63,914 nucleotides of DNA, filler included, from Rhabdomonas costata (GCA_019059605.1; 50 parts of 50 records of this genome joined end to end with filler, not necessarily neighbours in it); one strand, 5' to 3'. Shown: positions 10,149 to 57,664, counted from the whole stretch's first letter. Notes: generated by a model from the sequence alone, not told the origin. Program-made: numbers and translations.

Positions 10149-12858
10149 NNNNNNNNNNNNNNNNNNNNNNNNNNNNNNNNNNNNNNNNNNNNTTAATTAA
10201 TTAANNNNNNNNNNNNNNNNNNNNNNNNNNNNNNNNNNNNNNNNNNNNTGTTTGTGTTCCTCTGCTCAGAGAAGCACAAGAAAGCCGCACGGACGTGATG
10301 GACCAATGGCGGAGTAGCTGGAATCACATCAAGCAGCAGCTTGCGGACGCAGTGGCGCGCCTGGAAGCGGGGGCGAATCAACGGGCCAAAAAGGCCGCGG
10401 AAGAAAAGCTGATGAGGGTACTTGAGGCACTCTCCCGTTCCCTATACGAAGCCCTGAACGTGCAACCCGGCTCCTCCATAACGTTGATACGGGATGCCGG
10501 GAGGAGAACAGATAGGACGTGGCCGGGGAGCCGAGAGACAGGGAACGTGAGAGAGAAGGCAGGAGCCGAGGGATGGAGAGCCAGAGAAGGGACGGGCAAA
10601 GATGGCTGCGGGGATCAAGCATGGAGCATCCAAGGGAGGATAGAGACACAAAGCAGGAAAGGGACCCCCAAGACTCCCAGGGGCGAGACATGAAAGCCGG
10701 AGCCTAAAGAAGCGAAGAAAAGCACGTGTGCCCCAGGAGTACGATGCTGGCAAGGGATGGCATGCAAGTTCCAACGGTCTCTTTGTGTCTCTTTGTGCAC
10801 CCGAGGGAGGAGCGCCTTGAACGAACCCGCGTAGAGACGGACCCAGTGCACAGAGGTACTAGCGGACCATCGAGCATCGTAATCATCGAAATCAGAGCTC
10901 CTACGCTACCACCAACGGGAATCGACAGTACTCGCGGACGCACCAGGGCAAGCAGTCGGCGAGGCAACCCCGAGGTAGAGGGCAGGAATAGCCCGTAATG
11001 AAACTATAGAGTAATGTTCTGGCACGGCGACGCATGTATATACCGGTGCTGCCCGTTCATCCATTCGAAAGAAAAGCTCCAAGGGTCGTTCCCGCGAGAA
11101 AGGGCCCCGGTCGCCCAAGAAAGGAGTGTGGAGTCTCAGAGACCTGAGCAGGAATGGAACAATGCAGGTAGCCGCCGGAAAAGAGCAGCTGCGCGACAAA
11201 GGCCCGGGACCTGTGTGGGGCAGAAAGGAGGTTACCAGATGTGGAACGTTCGGCGGTGAGCCGGTTCCGGTTCCCCACGGCACCGCTCGCTCCAACGGCA
11301 CCTCGAGCACCGCGAGCACCCGTGGCCGACAGCACGTGCGCCAGTCAGTCTAGAGTGGTCACCACCAACCAACCCGTAAACCAGGCAACAGCCAGCGGCC
11401 GGTAAACCAGCCAATGCGTCCAACACCACNNNNNNNNNNNNNNNNNNNNNNNNNNNNNNNNNNNNNNNNNNNNTTAATTAATTAANNNNNNNNNNNNNNN
11501 NNNNNNNNNNNNNNNNNNNNNNNNNNNNNTGTTTGTGGTCATTGTAAGCACGAGATTGTCGGAAGTGGCGGGCCATCTGATATGGTCCATTTTTGGAGGT
11601 TGGTGTTAAGCTAAATACTGTCCGTATTTGTGAGGAGGGCAGCGCCCAAGATCTTAGACCGGGCGGTGACAAAGTGCGTGTGGATTATCTTTGTATGGAG
11701 TACCCCAGTGCGTGCATACTCTCTCTTGGACTCCGGGTACCAGTACGCGTGTCCGAATCTCAACGTTTTCTGAGTAATTCTTTTTTTAAGAGCCGGGGTA
11801 AGGTCAACTCACCTATGTCTTTGTGTGATAGTGTTAGGTCAATCAGCTATTGCTCGAGAAAGTTAGGCGCCACTCACATGGCTCTCAAGAGCCAATCCCC
11901 GCTTCTTTCCTCGAAACATTTCCAAAAAAAAATCGAATTTTCGTGCTGAATAAGTGCACCTCTACGTGTAGGTGCAGCACCTTGGAAACAAGCCGCGGCA
12001 CAACACATCTGTTTTTGTCACGGGTGAAGCTGATGAATTGCCGCGACACGCACACACACACATACGCACGCGTACACGCGTAGCGTTCTTCAGCAGCTTT
12101 GAATCCACCGAGCCTTCATTACGCAATACACCACGACACAGAAACCAGAGACGAATTTGCTGGACTCGGTCACTTCTGCTCCCATTCTTGATTCCTGATG
12201 ATTGGTGAATGGTGTTATCGCCCTAGTAACTGCTCGCGGTTCCCTGTGACACCGATATTGTTCTGTTGAAGCTGCTTTTTCCGTGATATGTTCCTGCTGT
12301 AGGTTTGGGTTGAATTTCTTTCTCTGGCTGTCGCTTTGAACTCTGAGTCGCCACAGGTGCTTCTGGGGCCCCCAGATTGCCTCCCCCATCAGCCCGCAGA
12401 AACTCTTCTCAAGGCTGTGATTAAGGAGTGTGACCCTGGGGGCAGCGTGTCCGTCGGGGTTGACGTCCCCTTGCCGTCCCCCGCAGAGGTGGAAGTCGTG
12501 GCGCGGTGCTCTACCACGGAACACTCCTCGGTGTGTGTGTCTGCCGATGCCTGAAGTGTGCTTCCCTTTGCTTCCCAGCACTCCTTCCCACCTGCTTGGA
12601 CTGGTAGCCGTGGTCGCTCTCGTCCCTGGTCTTCAGTGCCCAATCCGACTCCTCGCTTCTCTTCCGCTTGGTGTCGCACTTGGTTCATGACATCCAATGC
12701 ACCAACACCCNNNNNNNNNNNNNNNNNNNNNNNNNNNNNNNNNNNNNNNNNNNNTTAATTAATTAANNNNNNNNNNNNNNNNNNNNNNNNNNNNNNNNNN
12801 NNNNNNNNNNGGGGTGTGGTATTGTTGCATCTGGATTAATTTTAAATAGAATACAAAA

Positions 12859-13299
12859 ATGATACAAGATGAAAAAATACTTGTTAAAAAAATTAATCCA
12901 GATGCAACAATACCACAGACATATCTTGATTCAGCAGGATATGATCTTGTTTCATGTACTGATGGAACAATTGAACCATTAACAAGAAAAAAATTGGATA
13001 TTGGTATACAAATTGCAATACCAAACGGTAAATATGGAAGAATTGCTCCACGTAGTGGTTTAGCTTTAAAATGTGGTTTTGATGTATTAGCTGGTGTTAT
13101 TGATTCAAATTATCGAGGTGAAATTGGTGTAATACTATACAATACAGACAAAAACCATGTTTTTGAATATAAAAAGGGAGATAAGATCGCACAATTAATA
13201 ATCGAAACTTGTCATAATTATATATTCGAAGAAACAAATGATTTAGATATTACACAAAGAAATAAAGAAGGTTTTGGATCTTCTGATAATAATAAATAA
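12859..13299 (+). CDS. dut: Trimeric dUTPase, intronless and AT-rich, probably from a giant virus
   Basis: Complete 146-aa ORF with all five dUTPase motifs: SAGYDL, IAPRSGLA, GVIDSNYRGEI, GDKIAQL, RNKEGFGSS. Confidence 0.97.
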   Translation: MIQDEKILVKKINPDATIPQTYLDSAGYDLVSCTDGTIEPLTRKKLDIGIQIAIPNGKYGRIAPRSGLALKCGFDVLAGVIDSNYRGEIGVILYNTDKNHVFEYKKGDKIAQLIIETCHNYIFEETNDLDITQRNKEGFGSSDNNK

Positions 13300-13330
13300 T
13301 TAAAATTATTACACATAAATAATTTTAATT
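13298..13330. terminator. Perfect 13-bp AT hairpin overlapping the dUTPase stop codon, a putative Mimiviridae-type 3'-end signal
   Basis: AATTAAAATTATT-acacata-AATAATTTTAATT lies between two convergent genes. Confidence 0.6.
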
Positions 13331-13384
13331 CAAAAAATAAATTAATAAATTTACTAAATTAATGCACTATTTGTGAAAGATTTT

Positions 13385-13990
13385 TTATTTTAAAATAAAA
13401 TATTTTACTGTATCATAATACGTTTTATTTATATTGTGATTATTGTGTGAACCATTTACTGTTAACATTTTATAATTTCTTAAATATTTACAAATTTGTA
13501 ATGATTCATCATAGGATGTAATTTCATCATCAACACTGTGAATAACAAGAAATTTTGTTGTTGTATATAATTGTTGTGAAAGATAGTTACATGTATTATA
13601 TTTATGACCGTAAAATATACGTAAAACATACCATATTGGTTTTGTAACTATATTACTTGAATGTTTGTCAATATTTGCAAATCCTGAATTTAAAATAACT
13701 TTTGAAACACAAATATTCTGTTTACATAATGTATTATATAAATATGAAACAACAGTACAACCTAATGAATAACCATATAAAATTATATTTTCAGGTTTGT
13801 AATATTTTGTTAAATAACACCATACATAATATGCATCTTGATATATTCCATATTCTGATGGTTTCCCTGTACTTTTACCAAAACCACGATAATCAAACAT
13901 AATTATAGACACATAATTTTTAATTAAATTAGCTTTATAAATTGAATTATAAATATTACCAAAATTACCAGTAGCAAATAAAACAATTGA
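13385..13990 (-). CDS. Alpha/beta hydrolase (ABHD12/13/17-like), 5'-truncated at the contig end
   Basis: The frame is open to the contig end (IVLFATGNFGN...). It contains DYRGFGKSTGKPSE, the nucleophile elbow GYSLG, IHSxDDEI and the GSHN catalytic His. Confidence 0.92.
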   Translation of the reverse strand, partial: SIVLFATGNFGNIYNSIYKANLIKNYVSIIMFDYRGFGKSTGKPSEYGIYQDAYYVWCYLTKYYKPENIILYGYSLGCTVVSYLYNTLCKQNICVSKVILNSGFANIDKHSSNIVTKPIWYVLRIFYGHKYNTCNYLSQQLYTTTKFLVIHSVDDEITSYDESLQICKYLRNYKMLTVNGSHNNHNINKTYYDTVKYFILK

Positions 13991-15372
13991 TNNNNNNNNN
14001 NNNNNNNNNNNNNNNNNNNNNNNNNNNNNNNNNNNTTAATTAATTAANNNNNNNNNNNNNNNNNNNNNNNNNNNNNNNNNNNNNNNNNNNNGTGGGGGTG
14101 GTGAGAGCCTAAGCAATGCATCGGGTGGTGGGGCTAGAGCTAGAGAAGGGCTGATGACGATCGAAATAAAAACTATTGATCCAGTGCTTTTCAGAAGACC
14201 AGCATAATGAGTCAAGGTTGAGTTGAATCGAAAACACCCATTCAGGAAGGACCTTCCTGACTGGTATGCGCTGGTCTTTTTTGTGTTACGGAATATTACG
14301 GAATGCCTAAGGACCAAGGGGAGTTGTGACCATCGTGGTTGAGGTACGTGAACGGAATGGCGGGTTATCAGCTGGTGTCGACAAGCCTTTCCAGACCAAT
14401 GTTCTCAGGTGAGGGAGTGGGGCTCCAAGCAGTGCCAACAAATCATACACAACAAAACGCACAGGACATAAGATACTCTGCAAGCGGACCTTTTCATGCA
14501 AATCGGACACAATGACGACAACAATGTCGTCCGTTACGGGTGGGCAAGAACGCGGGACCCCCCCCCCCAGGAGAGGATAGTAAGTTGGGTGGTGATGGGA
14601 TATTTGGGCAGTGGAGGTAGTGGAAGCTACTGAACACATTGCGAGACGAAGAGTGAAGAACCCGCTGCCTTGAAAGCTGAAGTGCGATATTTCCGCCCGG
14701 CGAGAGTGCAGCAGCTCCCGCAGAGTAGTGCGCTTTTGCAAGCGGACACGCACAAACACACAAGAGCAACACACCCTGCGCCAGCTCCCGCCAGTGCACC
14801 CCCAACGGAGGCGACGGCTGAGGCGGCATTCTTGATGGTCTTCTGGCTGTATCCCTTACGGCTCAGGGAGCCTCTGATTAGCCAGGCCGTGTTCAAGCCC
14901 TGGCGGGCGACAAAGGTCGCAGTGATTCCCAGAACGCTCCCTGTCAGAGCAGAGAAGGCACGGGCCTCCCACTGACCGCAAGTGTTCCTTGCAACCAGGG
15001 ACGCCGTTGATGTGAGCACAATCCGCCCGTATTGATTTTTTCTCGCAAAAATCGGGGATGGCACTTTTAGCGATTCCCCCGTCCTTTTTTTGCGTTTTCT
15101 TTCTTCCCAACTGCAAAAGTGAGGACCCACCTTGCCCATAGTATTCTACATTTGAATTCAAAATAAAGAGGGCCTCTTAGACACTTCTGAACGGCAGATG
15201 GGGACTTACGTATGTATTTGTTCTGTAAGGAGCATCTCCAGCTGCTCTGCAGCGGGAGATGCCCCAAACAACNNNNNNNNNNNNNNNNNNNNNNNNNNNN
15301 NNNNNNNNNNNNNNNNTTAATTAATTAANNNNNNNNNNNNNNNNNNNNNNNNNNNNNNNNNNNNNNNNNNNN

Positions 15373-17614: not shown

Positions 17615-18666
17615 GTACCTCCCAAATTGGGACAGCTGCTCACCACTGGTTGCTTTTTGATTGGGTTACCGGGGTCTTGAAAAGTAGTGTGGGCCAAAAG
17701 TATGGTACCAGTGAGACTGAACCCGATTGAAACAAAAGAAATCTGAGTAGTCGAGGGTTAGCACGCAGGATCACGATACTTTTGGCCCACACTACTTTTC
17801 AAGACCCCGGTAACCCAATCAAAAACCAACCNNNNNNNNNNNNNNNNNNNNNNNNNNNNNNNNNNNNNNNNNNNNTTAATTAATTAANNNNNNNNNNNNN
17901 NNNNNNNNNNNNNNNNNNNNNNNNNNNNNNNTGAGTGAGTGCAAGTTTGTGCGGTGGATGTTGGAAGGATGCAGCAATGCCCACTAAGAAGGCATACTGG
18001 GTGCTTCACTGTAATGGGGTGGTTGTGAGGGAGGTAACATTGACGTGAGAACAGCATTGAATTTGCGGGCTGGCGGATAAACCAGAGAACACCATGGTGC
18101 TGAGGTGGATGTGAGCGGCTGGAGGTGCGATGGAAGGAGTACTGGAGGTTTGTGTGGTCGACGGTTCTGCTTCCGTTCTGTTCCGTTTGCCAAGGTGCTT
18201 CAAAACGCATGCGCACTACTCGCAACGAAAGCGCCATAACAGTGAAGTTTAGCCCGACAGTCGAATTGTCGAACGGAAGATCCGCATGAGGGGAAACACC
18301 CTCCGTGACGTGAGCAGCATCACAGAAACAAAAACGAACCCGTGCTAGTAATTTCTGATGAAGACGCAGGGTCTCGTGTATTAGTGTGTACGTGCGCGTG
18401 CGCGTGCGCGTGTGTGTACACAGGTGCCCGTGCAAGGCCCAAAATTAATTGAGCATTCGAGATTTAAAAACCTTGAATCTGGGGCGCGGAGTGCAGCGGA
18501 ATCATCTCCAAACATCCCAAAAATCCCAGGGTACACGTGCATTGCCACACTAACCCCCTGCAAAACGGAACAGCAGACAAACCCTGGTGCTTGTGGTACC
18601 CAGGGTACCCGCACAGACCACTTTACCAGCCCCAGGATTGATCGCAACAAAGCAGGGCAGCCATAC

Positions 18667-43632: not shown

Positions 43633-44721
43633 ATGTCAGGAAATCCGCCACCTTCAAAGCCGAGCGCAGCCCCCGCACCACAGATGGAGCAGACTTTTCT
43701 TAACCAAATGGTATCCTTTTTCCAGAGCATGTAGCAGCAGCAGCGGGCCAATCACGATCTTACACAGGAGTTGCTGCGGAGAGTGGTGGCTGGACCCTCA
43801 GCGGAAGGTTTACAGAGTGGAGGAGGTGCGCCAGCTTCCACAGTTCCAGAGGCGCTGGGAGCATTGCGAAAATTGCAGGAGAAAGCTCCAGAGTTCCAGA
43901 AGTACGATGGAAACCCAGCTAATTTCCTACCGTGGCTTGTGTCGGTAGAAGAGCTGAAGGACTTTCGCAGGCTTCCAGATCAAGTTGCGATCATTTATGC
44001 CACAGGCGCCTTGGGTGCACATTCCAGAGGAATTGTTGCTCCAGGTCAAGTCTTTACAGACTGGAAAGAGTTTGTAGAAACGTTGAAGAGGCGGCTGTGT
44101 GCACAGACGTGGGACTACAATGTAGTGTGGAGGTTGGAGCAATTAAAGATGTCGGAGGGGAATTTCCAATTCTACCACCAGCAGTTTGTGACCGGGATGA
44201 ATCTGTTGAAGGGGACGAAGTTTGACAACGAAACTCTTTTTCAGTATCTGTTTGTCACAGGTTTGGAAGGGGACATTCAGGCCAAAGTGATGGCGAAGAA
44301 TCCACGGACCCTTACAGAGGCAATGTATAAGGCATGTGAGTATTTCAAAAAGACGAGACCCCCTCCACAGGTGATTGTGGCGGTTCCAGACAGCACTGTT
44401 CAGAGAGGAATCGCGGCGTGGGGTGCGGCAATGGAATTAGATGCCATACGTTATGGGTACACTCCTTTCTCTGGGAGTACGGCCTTTCTAACCTCTACAG
44501 AGAGAAATGTCAGTGGTGCCCCTTCCACAGTTTCCAGAGGTATGGTTAACGTAAGTGCGGTGCAGAGAGGTGCAAATTTGTTCGAAATGGTGATACCGCC
44601 AACGTTAGCAGCCACAGTTCCGGCGAGTTCTGTAATGTTTTCCGCCCCTCCACAGCCACAATTTAATGCGACGCGTACGCCTTCTCCAGAGAGGAGGGTG
44701 ACTCCATCCAGAGGAATGTTG
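43633..44721 (+). mobile_element. gag: Ty3/gypsy LTR retrotransposon Gag (partial; one in-frame TAG at 43732)
   Basis: Long intronless ORF with KYDGNP..F..W, W.EF...LK, L..LK, F..GL..DI...V....P.TL.EA and MELDA, the retrotransposon Gag pattern. Confidence 0.85.
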
Positions 44722-56235: not shown

Positions 56236-56703
56236 CANNNNNNNNNNNNNNNNNNNNNNNNNNNNNNNNNNNNNNNNNNNNTTAATTAATTAANNNNNNN
56301 NNNNNNNNNNNNNNNNNNNNNNNNNNNNNNNNNNNNNGCCTACATGCCTCTGTTGCACCCGTCGCAGAGATGTGGCGATTGCCCGATGCACTCTCCTGTC
56401 CTTTTTATTAAGCGGCCTGCGGGTATGCGATTCTGCACCTGTAACACAAGGAGACAAGGGGCAGCAAGAGAAGGTGGATGGTTCCCGAAAGCAGCAGGTT
56501 GCACCTATAAACTGAGAAATCAATAAACGGGGGAATTCTAATATATTTTGTGCTGCTTGAACACGGAACTCACGGGGGCAGCGGAGAGCATCACAGAAAG
56601 GCAGAAAACCCAAAAGCAGCCAATAGTAGATGCAGCCTTTTTCCCCCCTTAGTCAGCGCTCGCTTTGCCCTCCGCGCGCGCCTTACACCCTGCTTTGCCA
56701 CAG

Positions 56704-57152
56704 GCTCGGGGAAAACCTACAGCATTCAGGGCGACCCCGGAGACTGCACAGGGGCTGGGATTGTGCCGCGGTTTTGCGCCGACCTGATGGCCTCGGCGCA
56801 GCGGCTGATGGAGGCCGACCCCACGCTGTTCGTGAAGCTCAGCCTGGCCATGATTGAGGTGTACAACGAAAAAGTCCGGGACCTACTGGAGTCTCGGCGC
56901 GGCGGCGGGGGGCAGCCCGTCGAGCTGACCTCTCTGGACCTGCGCGAGGACAGAAACAAGAAGGTCGTCAAACTCTCTTTTGAAGCTTTTGAAAAAGGGG
57001 CTGTGGATGTCGCTGATTGTTTCCCAGGCTCCCCTCCCTCGCCATTCCCCTTTCTCCGCACAAAGGTGTTTGTGGAAGGTCTCAGCCTGCACACCATTAC
57101 CAGTAACGAGCGGTTGGTCGCGCTGATCCGGCAGGGGCTGGCGAACCGCCAG
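56704..57152 (+). CDS. Kinesin motor domain, two exons (56704-56963; 57066-57152)
   Basis: GSGKTYS P-loop, GIVPRFC, EVYNEKVRDLL and LRED...|VFVEGLS...G..NR. Confidence 0.95.
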
Positions 57153-57664
57153 GTTCCGTGGTTTTTTATTGAAACTTCTTTTGCACCGCAAGTGGTTGTG
57201 TGGGTGTGATCTGCTTGACTGTGCATAAAAAGTAAGACAAAAGCCGAACGTCCAGTCACGGTGAAACCAAAGTGGAATGAGACAAGAAGATTTGCGCTGT
57301 GGTGGATATATTTAGGGGGAGCAGGGTGGGTGATTACTATTTCGGCTCTGAGTGGGCCGAACCCCTGAGGAATTACGCTGCTCGATTTGTGCACCATCTC
57401 TCCTCCTCCCTTTCTCCAACTCTCCCACCTCCTGATTGTGGTTATGGTGTACCTGCTGTCCCTCTATCTTGTACACTGCGCTGCCTTTGGGCGTGAATAG
57501 AACGAATTGTTTTTTCTNNNNNNNNNNNNNNNNNNNNNNNNNNNNNNNNNNNNNNNNNNNNTTAATTAATTAANNNNNNNNNNNNNNNNNNNNNNNNNNN
57601 NNNNNNNNNNNNNNNNNGTTTTTGGTATGCATTTATTCGATTGGTCGCAATCTTTCTTTCTCAG

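What the first reader, a model, noticed from the sequence alone, without database searches (positions are those of the whole stretch)
12811..13991. AT-rich, intronless dUTPase plus alpha/beta hydrolase contig: probable giant-virus (Mimiviridae-like) DNA in a protist assembly
Seen: this contig is about 20-25% GC by eye, against about 50% elsewhere. It has no introns, two tightly packed convergent ORFs, no Shine-Dalgarno before the dUTPase ATG (..tacaaaaATG), and Asn/Lys/Ile/Tyr-rich proteins. Known: trimeric dUTPases and ABHD-type hydrolases occur in Nucleocytoviricota, and Mimiviridae genomes are very AT-rich. Inference: this is a fragment of a giant virus infecting, ingested by, or endogenised in this apparently euglenozoan host, for which few viruses are described. 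Both ORFs are intact, which suggests active virus or a recent insertion.
Basis: partly seen in the sequence, partly recalled or inferred. Interest (0 to 1): 0.8.

Follow-up and report, generated by a model that had tools for sequence, protein, structure and literature searches.

The report
Probable giant-virus fragment in protist assembly
One 1.2-kb, very AT-rich contig in a fragmented eukaryote assembly carries a dUTPase and part of a serine hydrolase whose nearest classified relatives sit in mimivirus-like giant-virus genomes, so it is probably a small piece of giant-virus DNA, which is a known kind of find.

Summary
The window is 50 concatenated contigs of about 1181 bp. Contig 12811-13991 is 23.8% GC; the other 49 are 48-60%. 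It carries an intact trimeric dUTPase and, convergent with an 85-nt gap, an alpha/beta hydrolase cut by the contig end (about 70-90 N-terminal residues missing).

The hydrolase carries the evidence. Its best relatives among 1.84 billion proteins are N/K/I-rich proteins of about 270 aa. One is named Hyperionvirus. Others lie on IMG/VR giant-virus contigs, two of which I checked and found to hold major capsid protein and MutS genes. The query shares three indels with this clade that 15 of 15 named bacteria lack. No relative exists in 50,697 phage records. However, an AU test does not reject a placement next to bacteria.

The dUTPase is uninformative. It is about 55-60% identical to many unnamed proteins, and the closest fetched loci that I classified by flanking genes are tailed phages.

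A 13-bp AU hairpin at the dUTPase stop and the lack of a Shine-Dalgarno motif fit Mimiviridae weakly.

Not tested: the host's identity and linkage to host DNA. Giant endogenous viral elements of 25-37% GC are already published for Euglena gracilis.

Verdict: probably Imitervirales-like DNA (0.63), and ordinary in kind.

The parts
12811..13991 (.). AT-rich foreign contig, 1181 bp, 23.8% GC, bounded on both sides by artificial N/TTAATTAATTAA spacers
   Evidence: the other 49 contigs of the window are 48-60% GC
12811..12843 (+). Fold-back end, probably an amplification or assembly artefact: 12815-12843 is the exact reverse complement of 12889-12917; the first 10 nt contain only G and T
   Evidence: I1: 29 nt, 100% complementary, 45 nt between arms; 5 of 50 contigs have such an end; G/T-only starts in 34 of 50 contigs
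12859..13299 (+). Complete trimeric dUTPase gene, 146 aa, TAA stop, 28.3% GC
   Evidence: PF00692, E 4.5e-33; all 29 columns invariant among 30 relatives are kept, including AGxDL, PRSG, GVIDxxYRG, IAQ and the C-terminal GFGS; best solved structures 117 bits; GC
13298..13330 (.). Perfect 13-bp A/T-only palindrome with a 7-nt loop. It starts at the dUTPase stop codon and lies 55 nt past the hydrolase stop. Candidate shared 3'-end hairpin of the convergent pair
   Evidence: I13; -6.7 kcal/mol, z -4.3, 0 of 200 shuffles fold as well; 0 of 300 contig shuffles and 7 of 2000 intergenic shuffles reach a 13-bp stem
13385..13990 (-). C-terminal 201 codons plus stop of an alpha/beta-fold serine hydrolase, 21.6% GC. 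The 5' part is cut off by the contig end
   Evidence: PF00561 49.8 bits, PF12146 30.1 bits; Ser75 in GYSLG, Asp155 and His182 lie in invariant columns; relatives, tree, indels

Best explanation
The contig is a small fragment of the genome of an AT-rich giant virus (Nucleocytoviricota), most likely of the Imitervirales/Mimiviridae kind, co-assembled with a roughly 52% GC eukaryote. It carries two ordinary auxiliary genes. The first is a trimeric dUTPase, which hydrolyses dUTP to dUMP and pyrophosphate and so keeps uracil out of thymine-rich viral DNA and feeds dTTP synthesis. This function is inferred from the family and from motifs shown to be intact. The second is a serine hydrolase of a family whose full-length members carry a hydrophobic N-terminal anchor, so it is probably a membrane-bound esterase or lipase. 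The catalytic triad is shown; the substrate is unknown. The two convergent transcripts probably end at the shared A/T-only hairpin, as Mimiviridae transcripts do (inferred). Whether the DNA came from virions, from an infection, from ingested particles, from a contaminant, or from an element integrated in the host genome cannot be told from 1.2 kb. If the host is Euglena gracilis, a published low-GC endogenous element is a real possibility.
For: HYDROLASE SIMILARITY. phmmer against 1.84 billion proteins gave a best hit of 39% identity (132.6 bits). All eight close relatives whose sequences I read (seven of the top hits plus P0121) are N/K/I-rich proteins of 263-284 aa with a hydrophobic N-terminus. 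The 12th hit (P0170, 104.7 bits, 36% identity) is named 'Hyperionvirus sp.' by NCBI. It is the only named protein scoring above 226 bits in the profile search; the other named proteins are bacterial MAG proteins at 225 bits or less.

GIANT-VIRUS CONTEXT. An IMG/VR scan with the family alignment returned 35 loci. 13 lie on contigs named GVMAG and 15 on contigs over 130 kb. Their GC is 23-46%. The two records that could be searched (G001, 357 kb; G002, a 1.04-Mb 'giant virus bin') each hold 5 matches to the NCLDV capsid family, against 0 of 14 control genomes, and each holds a MutS_V match in an open frame of about 985 aa.

TREE AND INDELS. In a 91-row tree the query lies in a clade with SH-aLRT 95 made of 43 unnamed rows and 6 giant-virus rows. 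All 15 named bacteria lie on the other side of a branch with support 90. Three indels agree with this:
- A 1-residue deletion: query yes; clade 48 of 49; bacteria 0 of 15; other rows 1 of 26.
- An insertion of 5 or more residues: query 9 residues between landmarks; all 49 clade rows have 6 or more; 14 of 15 bacteria and 23 of 26 other rows have 4.
- A 2-residue insertion: query 11 residues; 44 of 49 clade rows have 10 or more; 15 of 15 bacteria and 25 of 26 other rows have 8.

PHAGES. No relative was found in 50,697 phage records at E <= 1e-3.

WEAK SUPPORT.
- The 13-bp hairpin at the stop codon. Passages I read in PMC6163669 and PMC4402537 list hairpin-forming 3' motifs as a key Mimiviridae feature.
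- Perfect stems of 10 bp or more within 60 nt after a stop codon occur in 77 of 340 and 5 of 65 genes of giant-virus loci, in 4 of 151 genes of phage loci and in 7 of 125 genes of bacterial and archaeal loci.
- Shine-Dalgarno-like words before genes occur in 15 of 420 giant-virus genes, 69 of 202 phage genes and 53 of 129 cellular genes; the query has none.
- The contig's GC (23.8%) matches clade loci L242 (22.9%) and L254 (23.0%).
Against: - The dUTPase points elsewhere or nowhere. It is 54-65% identical to 120 unnamed proteins.
- The closest fetched loci that I classified by flanking genes are tailed phages: L161 (T4 baseplate and Mtd_N, 56%), L286 (tail sheath and T4 baseplate, 56%), L277 (DnaB and Toprim on a 244-kb genome with terminal repeats, 58%).
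- 0 of 26 searchable IMG/VR records with close dUTPases hold an NCLDV capsid. Of the 16 of these tested, 5 match a terminase family at E <= 0.001, 2 of them over the curated cut-off.
- dUTPases on two giant-virus-bin contigs whose neighbouring genes are of eukaryote/giant-virus type (L376 with topoisomerase II; L387 with collagen and PAN) are only 41-46% identical.
- In the mixture-model tree the dUTPase is an unplaced long branch of 1.12.
- For the hydrolase, the AU test does not reject the query joined to the bacteria (log-likelihood difference 2.3, p 0.463). The query's end branch is long (1.58 against a median of 0.75).
- A shared AT-driven amino-acid bias could inflate similarity to the AT-rich clade.
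- Only 2 of the 35 IMG/VR loci were verified as giant viruses by capsid. No named eukaryotic homologue was available for the tree.
- No hallmark gene is on the contig, and no fetched locus carries both genes. G001 and G002 have no dUTPase match.
- In the clade's own giant-virus loci hairpins are uncommon (5 of 65), and stems of 13 bp or more are rare everywhere: 9 of 405 giant-virus genes, 0 of 151 phage genes, 2 of 125 cellular genes.
Confidence: 0.63

Rival explanations
1. The contig comes from an AT-rich large tailed phage (a T4-like jumbo myophage) of a bacterium present in the sample. The dUTPase would be a normal phage nucleotide-metabolism gene and the hydrolase an acquired accessory gene.
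For: The fetched loci with the most similar dUTPases that I classified by flanking genes (54-58% identity) are tailed phages of 29-34% GC, often with the dUTPase next to ribonucleotide reductase genes. 0 of 26 such IMG/VR records have an NCLDV capsid. Of the 16 of these tested, 5 match a terminase family at E <= 0.001, 2 of them over the curated cut-off.
Against: No relative of the hydrolase exists in 50,697 phage records. In IMG/VR the family was found only on contigs named GVMAG or other mostly large contigs, two of them verified by capsid. No Shine-Dalgarno-like word precedes the dUTPase, whereas 34% of genes in the phage loci have one. The contig is 5-10 GC points lower than those phages. 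The dUTPase is not in any supported clade with them. Isolate phage dUTPases reach at most 48% identity.
Confidence: 0.1
2. The contig comes from an AT-rich cellular organism: a bacterial symbiont, prey or contaminant, or a second AT-rich eukaryote.
For: The AU test does not reject the hydrolase branching next to named bacteria. Bacterial and archaeal dUTPases of the same type exist at up to 49% identity, for example in candidate-phyla-radiation bacteria, DPANN archaea and Coriobacteriia. The best solved-structure matches of the dUTPase carry eukaryotic names ('mitochondrial', 'shrimp') at 97-118 bits. Atlas neighbours of the hydrolase include bacterial and eukaryotic clusters (one labelled BEM46) with scores equal to the viral cluster.
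Against: All 15 named bacterial hydrolases lack the three indels that the query shares with the giant-virus clade. One search lists no bacterial protein above 225 bits on the clade's profile, and no named bacterium appears's unnamed top 150 (75 bits or more); the only direct bacterial score, Chryseobacterium, is 66 bits, against 104.7 bits for Hyperionvirus. No named eukaryote protein appears among the 120 listed profile hits. The 16 bacterial and archaeal dUTPases form a starred clade that excludes the query. There is no Shine-Dalgarno-like word. An 85-nt gap between intronless convergent genes is unusual for most eukaryotes (general knowledge). TAA is used as a stop directly after dUTPase motif V, which rules out ciliate codes.
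Confidence: 0.12
3. This is a sub-case of the best explanation and concerns the physical state of the DNA. The contig would be a piece of a giant endogenous viral element integrated in the host's nuclear genome, already described if the host is Euglena gracilis, rather than DNA of a free or replicating virus.
For: The sections I read of PMC12455990 report eight such elements in E. gracilis: 86-311 kb, 25-37% GC against about 51% for the host, more than 90% coding, with many genes of normal length. One outlier, CP87_12, has 25.4% GC. The window's other contigs are 48-60% GC.
Against: The host species was not identified here. The published elements are assigned to Asfuvirales, whereas the verified carriers of the nearest hydrolases encode MutS, and one relative is named Hyperionvirus. 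That points to Imitervirales; the link from MutS to that order is recalled, not tested. The words dUTPase and hydrolase do not occur in the paper's main text, and its supplements could not be seen. No host-like flank exists on the contig.
Confidence: 0.25

Closest known systems
Alpha/beta hydrolase of Hyperionvirus sp. (a metagenome-assembled Mimiviridae-type giant virus; protein P0170) and its homologues on IMG/VR giant-virus contigs (L242, L243, L245, L254, L261)
   Same: Same Pfam families. The catalytic Ser, Asp and His are aligned. It shares the three clade-specific indels and the AT-driven N/K/I-rich composition. The carrier genomes are 23-29% GC.
   Different: Only 32-38% identical. The query has Thr-Gly where 19 of 20 relatives have the His-Gly motif, and Glu where all 20 have His at query position 162. 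Its branch is twice the median length. Its N-terminal anchor region is missing because the contig ends.
Trimeric dUTPases of eukaryotes and large DNA viruses (Pfam PF00692)
   Same: 146 aa with all conserved motifs. It scores 117 bits against the best solved structures (chains named 'mitochondrial' dUTPase), versus about 50 bits for the 152-aa chains that I recall to be E. coli.
   Different: No relative above 65% identity among 5.8 billion protein clusters. It sits on a long, unplaced branch. It has Asn where most relatives have the second Asp of the IDSDYRG motif, a position that varies among relatives.
Giant endogenous viral elements of Euglena gracilis (PMC12455990) and Bodo saltans virus, the only giant-virus isolate from Discoba according to that paper
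   Same: Low-GC (25-37%), densely coding giant-virus DNA in or with a euglenozoan whose own DNA is about 51% GC.
   Different: Those elements are assigned to Asfuvirales, whereas the relatives here look like Imitervirales. No sequence comparison was possible, and the host of this window is unverified.

Membership tests
Trimeric dUTPase (PF00692) | Profile match above the curated cut-off over the whole domain | tested here: met
   114.2 bits against a cut-off of 22; residues 19-142 match profile positions 7-128 of 129
Trimeric dUTPase (PF00692) | Conserved motifs I-V, including the motif III Asp and the C-terminal GFGS arm | tested here: met
   All 29 columns invariant among 30 relatives are kept: A26 G27 D29 L30; P64 S66 G67; G79 V80 D82 Y85; A111 Q112; R134 G138 G140 S141. 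Motif numbering is recalled.
Trimeric dUTPase (PF00692) | Homotrimer with active sites shared between subunits | not tested
   No structure or complex prediction was run
Alpha/beta-fold serine hydrolase (PF00561 / PF12146; ABHD13/BEM46-like is a lead only) | Profile match above the curated cut-off | tested here: met
   PF00561 49.8 bits (cut-off 25.8); PF12146 30.1 bits (cut-off 27). The BEM46 label comes only from an Atlas feature neighbour at 0.96, which is no better than the bacterial clusters.
Alpha/beta-fold serine hydrolase (PF00561 / PF12146; ABHD13/BEM46-like is a lead only) | Catalytic triad: Ser in G-x-S-x-G, Asp, His | tested here: met
   S75 (GYSLG), D155 and H182 are invariant columns in the 21-row alignment
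Alpha/beta-fold serine hydrolase (PF00561 / PF12146; ABHD13/BEM46-like is a lead only) | His-Gly oxyanion-hole motif (HGNAGN in relatives) | tested here: not met
   The query has TGNFGN; 19 of 20 relatives have His. The role of this motif is recalled.
Alpha/beta-fold serine hydrolase (PF00561 / PF12146; ABHD13/BEM46-like is a lead only) | Hydrophobic N-terminal anchor, seen in close relatives | not testable with these tools
   The contig ends about 70-90 codons short of the start
Nucleocytoviricota genome fragment | Hallmark genes (major capsid protein, PolB, A32 ATPase, VLTF3) on the same molecule or in the same bin | not testable with these tools
   The contig holds only two genes.
Nucleocytoviricota genome fragment | A gene nested in a clade whose classified members are giant viruses | tested here: met
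   Hydrolase: a clade with SH-aLRT 95 containing 6 giant-virus rows and three shared indels that are absent from 15 of 15 bacteria. Carriers G001 and G002 have capsid genes.
Nucleocytoviricota genome fragment | Likelihood test excludes a cellular (bacterial) placement | tested here: inconclusive
   AU p 0.463 for query plus bacteria. The dUTPase is unplaced.
Mimiviridae / Imitervirales | Hairpin-forming palindromes at gene 3' ends | tested here: met
   A 13-bp perfect palindrome at the dUTPase stop, shared by the convergent pair. The criterion comes from passages of PMC6163669. It discriminates weakly in my control.
Mimiviridae / Imitervirales | AAAATTGA early promoter motif upstream of genes | not testable with these tools
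   Only about 15 nt of genuine upstream sequence exist, because the rest is a fold-back copy. The motif is not in them.
Mimiviridae / Imitervirales | AT-rich genome (over 70% A+T) | tested here: met
   76.2% A+T; the criterion comes from a passage of PMC4402537
Tailed phage (Caudoviricetes) fragment | Genes whose relatives occur in phage genomes | tested here: inconclusive
   dUTPase yes: 54-58% identity to phage-borne copies. Hydrolase no: 0 matches in 50,697 records.

The most novel reading that the evidence does not exclude
The contig is the visible tip of an undescribed Imitervirales (mimivirus-like) virus physically associated with a euglenozoan cell, either infecting it or recently integrated. 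Going by the passages I read of PMC12455990, Discoba so far has one isolate (Bodo saltans virus) and Asfuvirales-type endogenous elements in Euglena, so this would be a new virus-host link in a poorly sampled supergroup.
Probability: 0.12. Interest if true: 0.6.

Novelty: new member of a known kind. Interest (0 to 1): 0.3.

Why it matters
Giant-virus DNA in protist assemblies is a recognised phenomenon, so one more 1.2-kb fragment changes little. Its practical value is as a flag. The assembly holds foreign low-GC DNA that should be binned out or examined, and the two genes should not be annotated as host genes. If the rest of the low-GC bin proved to be an Imitervirales genome linked to a euglenozoan, it would add a host-virus pair to a supergroup with very few. 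The case also shows that a dUTPase alone cannot separate giant viruses from large phages, whereas a lineage-specific accessory gene with indel signatures can.

Tried and rejected
- Whole-assembly binning and searching the window's own genome: no genome is held.
- Searching metagenome records behind the loci for capsid genes: the records are not held.
- Rfam on the window for host-diagnostic RNAs: 0 matches.
- Host placement from a kinesin fragment in the protein Atlas: shows only 'Eukaryota'.
- Names for the top dUTPase and hydrolase relatives: none informative in 20 clusters.
- Single-sequence scan of IMG/VR with the hydrolase: nothing. The alignment-based scan worked.
- Looking for one locus with both genes: 0 of the 355 loci held. 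At, with 240 loci, there were no hydrolase matches at all.
- A FastTree run of 389 dUTPases joined the query to 13 very AT-rich unnamed proteins (plus L162 and P0011) at support 90. The mixture-model tree dissolved that grouping, so I do not rely on it. Those proteins have no relative above 65% identity in IMG/VR.
- Reading the 13-bp hairpin as a bacterial intrinsic terminator: rejected, because the stem is A/T only and no T-run follows it on either strand.
- A ciliate genetic code: rejected, because TAA ends the dUTPase right after its last motif.
- The hydrolase's best solved-structure match is the hydrolase domain of chains named RTX toxin RtxA (42.7 bits, residues 15-109). I take this as generic fold similarity and did not pursue it.

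Full report
WHAT IS THERE. The window is not one molecule. It is 50 contigs of 1175-1182 bp, apparently sorted by length and joined by runs of N around TTAATTAATTAA. Forty-nine contigs are 48.2-59.8% GC. The contig at 12811-13991 is 23.8% GC. It carries two convergent open frames that fill 89% of it. The first, 12859-13299 (+), encodes 146 aa and matches Pfam dUTPase at 114 bits. The second, 13385-13990 (-), encodes 201 aa and matches Abhydrolase_1 and Hydrolase_4. Only 1 of 500 Markov shuffles of the contig gave an open frame as long as 146 codons, so these are real genes.

The dUTPase keeps every column that is invariant among its 30 closest relatives. The hydrolase keeps the Ser, Asp and His that are invariant among 20 relatives. 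It differs at 5 of 38 strongly conserved columns, including Thr for the His of the HG motif. That retention (87%) lies within the range of other family members, 82-100%. The hydrolase is not complete: relatives are 260-290 aa and align from about residue 70-90 onward, so the contig end cuts the gene.

ARTEFACTS AT THE CONTIG ENDS. Positions 12815-12843 are an exact inverted copy of 12889-12917, which lies inside the dUTPase gene. The same kind of end occurs in 5 of the 50 contigs. In addition, 34 of 50 contigs start with a run of 6 or more bases that are only G or T (median run 10), and 34 of 50 end with a matching A/C-only run. None of 50 shows such a run at an internal control position. I read both features as traces of amplification or library construction. 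They mean that only about 15 nt upstream of the dUTPase start are genuine. Promoter arguments therefore cannot be made, beyond noting that no Shine-Dalgarno-like word is present.

THE HYDROLASE POINTS TO GIANT VIRUSES. An exhaustive phmmer search of 1.84 billion representative proteins gave 6490 hits at E <= 0.001. The best is 39% identical. All eight close relatives whose sequences I read (seven of the top hits plus P0121) are N/K/I-rich proteins of 263-284 aa with a hydrophobic N-terminus. The 12th best, P0170 (104.7 bits, 36%), is named by NCBI as an alpha/beta hydrolase of a Hyperionvirus MAG. In a profile search it is the only named protein scoring above 226 bits; the other named proteins are bacterial MAG proteins at 225 bits or less.

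A scan of IMG/VR with the family alignment returned 35 loci. Thirteen are on contigs named GVMAG and 15 on contigs over 130 kb. Their GC is 23-46%. Two of these records could be searched whole. G001 (357 kb) and G002 (labelled a giant virus bin, 1.04 Mb) each gave five matches to the NCLDV capsid family, which matched none of 14 control genomes. Each also has a MutS_V match in an open frame of about 985 aa. From recall, a MutS of that kind is typical of Mimiviridae-like viruses. Loci L242 and L254, at 23% GC, carry a class I tRNA synthetase fragment, DEAH helicases and an AMP-binding enzyme, which is compatible with such viruses. No relative of the hydrolase exists in 50,697 phage records.

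TREE, TEST AND INDELS. I built a 91-row tree with the LG+C20 mixture model and a quick search. The rows were the query, 30 distinct IMG/VR proteins, the Hyperionvirus protein, 15 named bacterial proteins, and 44 unnamed top hits of 200-330 aa (longer and shorter hits were left out). The query falls in a clade with SH-aLRT 95. That clade holds 43 unnamed rows and 6 giant-virus rows: Hyperionvirus, L242, L243 (G001), L245 (G002), L254 and L261. All 15 bacteria lie on one side of a branch with support 90.

The query's branch is long (1.58 against a median of 0.75). An AU test does not reject a tree that joins it to the bacteria (log-likelihood difference 2.3, p 0.463). So substitutions alone do not settle the placement.

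Gaps are ignored by the likelihood, and they do speak:
- A one-residue deletion: present in the query and in 48 of 49 clade rows, in 0 of 15 bacteria and in 1 of 26 other rows.
- An insertion: the query has 9 residues between landmarks and all 49 clade rows have 6 or more, while 14 of 15 bacteria and 23 of 26 other rows have 4.
- A two-residue insertion: the query has 11 residues and 44 of 49 clade rows have 10 or more, while 15 of 15 bacteria and 25 of 26 other rows have 8.

These characters are independent of amino-acid composition, and I weigh them most. There are two caveats. No named eukaryotic homologue could be added to the tree. And the 'giant virus' label was verified by capsid for only two of the loci.

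THE dUTPASE DOES NOT DISCRIMINATE. Against solved structures it scores 117 bits with chains named mitochondrial dUTPase and about 50 bits with the 152-aa chains that I recall to be E. coli. So it is of the eukaryote/large-virus type. Among 5.8 billion protein clusters it has 6148 hits. The top 120 are unnamed and 52-65% identical over 82-99% of the query. Bacterial and archaeal genomes reach 49% and isolate phages 48%.

The most similar fetched loci that I classified by flanking genes are tailed phages. L161 is a 372-kb contig with a T4 baseplate protein and Mtd_N. L286 has a tail sheath and a T4 baseplate protein. L277 is a 244-kb genome with terminal repeats, DnaB and a Toprim primase. None of 26 searchable IMG/VR records with close dUTPases holds an NCLDV capsid. 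Of the 16 of these records tested, 5 match a terminase family at E <= 0.001, 2 of them above its cut-off.

dUTPases on two giant-virus-bin contigs with eukaryote/giant-virus-type neighbouring genes are more distant, at 41-46% (L376 with topoisomerase II; L387 with collagen and PAN domains). A FastTree of 389 rows joined the query to 13 very AT-rich unnamed proteins, plus L162 and P0011. A mixture-model tree of 73 selected rows left the query as an unplaced long branch, outside a starred clade of 16 cellular sequences. The 73 rows were chosen from the 389 by me: all loci I had classified, 16 cellular rows and 41 unnamed rows.

SIGNALS IN THE SPACER. A perfect 13-bp A/T-only palindrome with a 7-nt loop begins at the dUTPase stop codon (13298-13330). 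None of 300 Markov shuffles of the contig reaches a 13-bp stem, and 7 of 2000 shuffles of the spacer do. The fold has z = -4.3. No T-run follows it, so it is not a canonical bacterial terminator.

Passages I read in PMC4402537 and PMC6163669 describe hairpin-forming palindromes at transcript 3' ends as a feature that strengthens assignment to Mimiviridae. My control shows that this is only weak evidence. Perfect stems of 10 bp or more within 60 nt after a stop occur in 77 of 340 and 5 of 65 genes of giant-virus loci, 4 of 151 genes of phage loci and 7 of 125 genes of cellular loci. Stems of 13 bp or more occur in 8, 1, 0 and 2 of those genes respectively. Shine-Dalgarno-like words precede 15 of 420 giant-virus genes, 69 of 202 phage genes and 53 of 129 cellular genes, with a crude first-ATG choice of start.

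HOST AND PRIOR KNOWLEDGE. The other contigs include a kinesin motor fragment and a Ty3-gag-like ORF, so the assembly is eukaryotic. Nothing I could run shows that it is euglenozoan. A literature search found PMC12455990. I read its abstract and its Results section, parts 1 and 2 of 3, plus passages from the Introduction and Methods. It reports eight giant endogenous viral elements in Euglena gracilis: 86-311 kb, 25-37% GC against about 51% for the host, more than 90% coding, assigned to Asfuvirales. One outlier has 25.4% GC. The paper states that Bodo saltans virus is the only giant virus known to infect a member of Discoba. If the host here is that species, this contig may simply be a piece of such an element. 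I could not compare sequences, and the paper's supplements, which may list dUTPase or hydrolase genes, were not seen.

VERDICT. My probabilities are:
- Giant-virus (Imitervirales-like) origin: about 0.63. This is the best explanation and rests mainly on the hydrolase's relatives and indels.
- Large AT-rich phage: about 0.10.
- AT-rich cellular source: about 0.12.
- Something else: the remainder.

Whether the DNA is free, infecting, ingested, contaminating or integrated is open. In kind this is a new member of a known class, and its interest is modest unless the rest of the low-GC bin turns out to be a giant-virus genome linked to the host.

Noticed in passing
window 1-63914 (spacers, e.g. 12711-12810 and 13992-14091): The window is 50 contigs of 1175-1182 bp, apparently sorted by length and joined by N runs around TTAATTAATTAA, a linker that has a stop in all six frames. 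Neighbouring contigs are therefore not physically linked, and context arguments across spacers are void.
   Followed up: yes
first and last ~10 nt of the window's contigs, e.g. 12811-12820: 34 of 50 contigs begin with a run of 6 or more G/T-only bases (median 10), and 34 of 50 end with a matching A/C-only run. None of 50 shows this at an internal control position. This looks like primer-derived ends from whole-genome amplification with G/T-only degenerate primers. That such kits exist is recalled, not tested. It would imply a low-input or single-cell sample, in which co-amplified foreign DNA is common.
   Followed up: partly
contig ends at 12811, 28181 and 55059 (5' ends) and at 17831 and 42160 (3' ends): 5 of 50 contigs have an end whose terminal 20 nt or more are an inverted copy of sequence within 300 nt. 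These are fold-back chimeras, so terminal sequence of these contigs should not be read as biology.
   Followed up: partly
window 43735-44721 (+) and 56511-57206 (+): The host-like contigs include a weak Ty3-capsid-like ORF (E 1.6e-5, below the cut-off) and a kinesin motor fragment (E 6e-17). Only 7 frames of 220 codons or more are open in about 59 kb, which suggests low coding density or introns in the host.
   Followed up: partly
L366 (a contig named GVMAG, 8.8 kb) compared with L161 and L356: This contig of a giant-virus bin has a 551-aa ribonucleotide reductase large subunit directly upstream of its dUTPase, the same layout as L161 (which has a T4 baseplate gene) and L356. Its dUTPase also clusters with that of L302, whose record has only a weak terminase match (18.6 bits, below the cut-off). 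It may be a phage contig mis-binned into a giant-virus MAG.
   Followed up: partly
L161, L356, L366: A conserved block of genes (ribonucleotide reductase small subunit, large subunit, dUTPase) recurs in AT-rich (29-34% GC) large viral contigs from metagenomes. Their dUTPases are of the eukaryote-like type.
   Followed up: no
proteins P0001, P0003, P0006-P0010, P0012, P0016, P0020, P0023, P0028, P0038: This is a tight group of 13 extremely N/I/K-rich dUTPases (71-99% identical to each other, mostly 146 aa) from contigs of up to 59 kb. They have no relative above 65% identity in IMG/VR and no name, so their carrier is unknown.
   Followed up: partly
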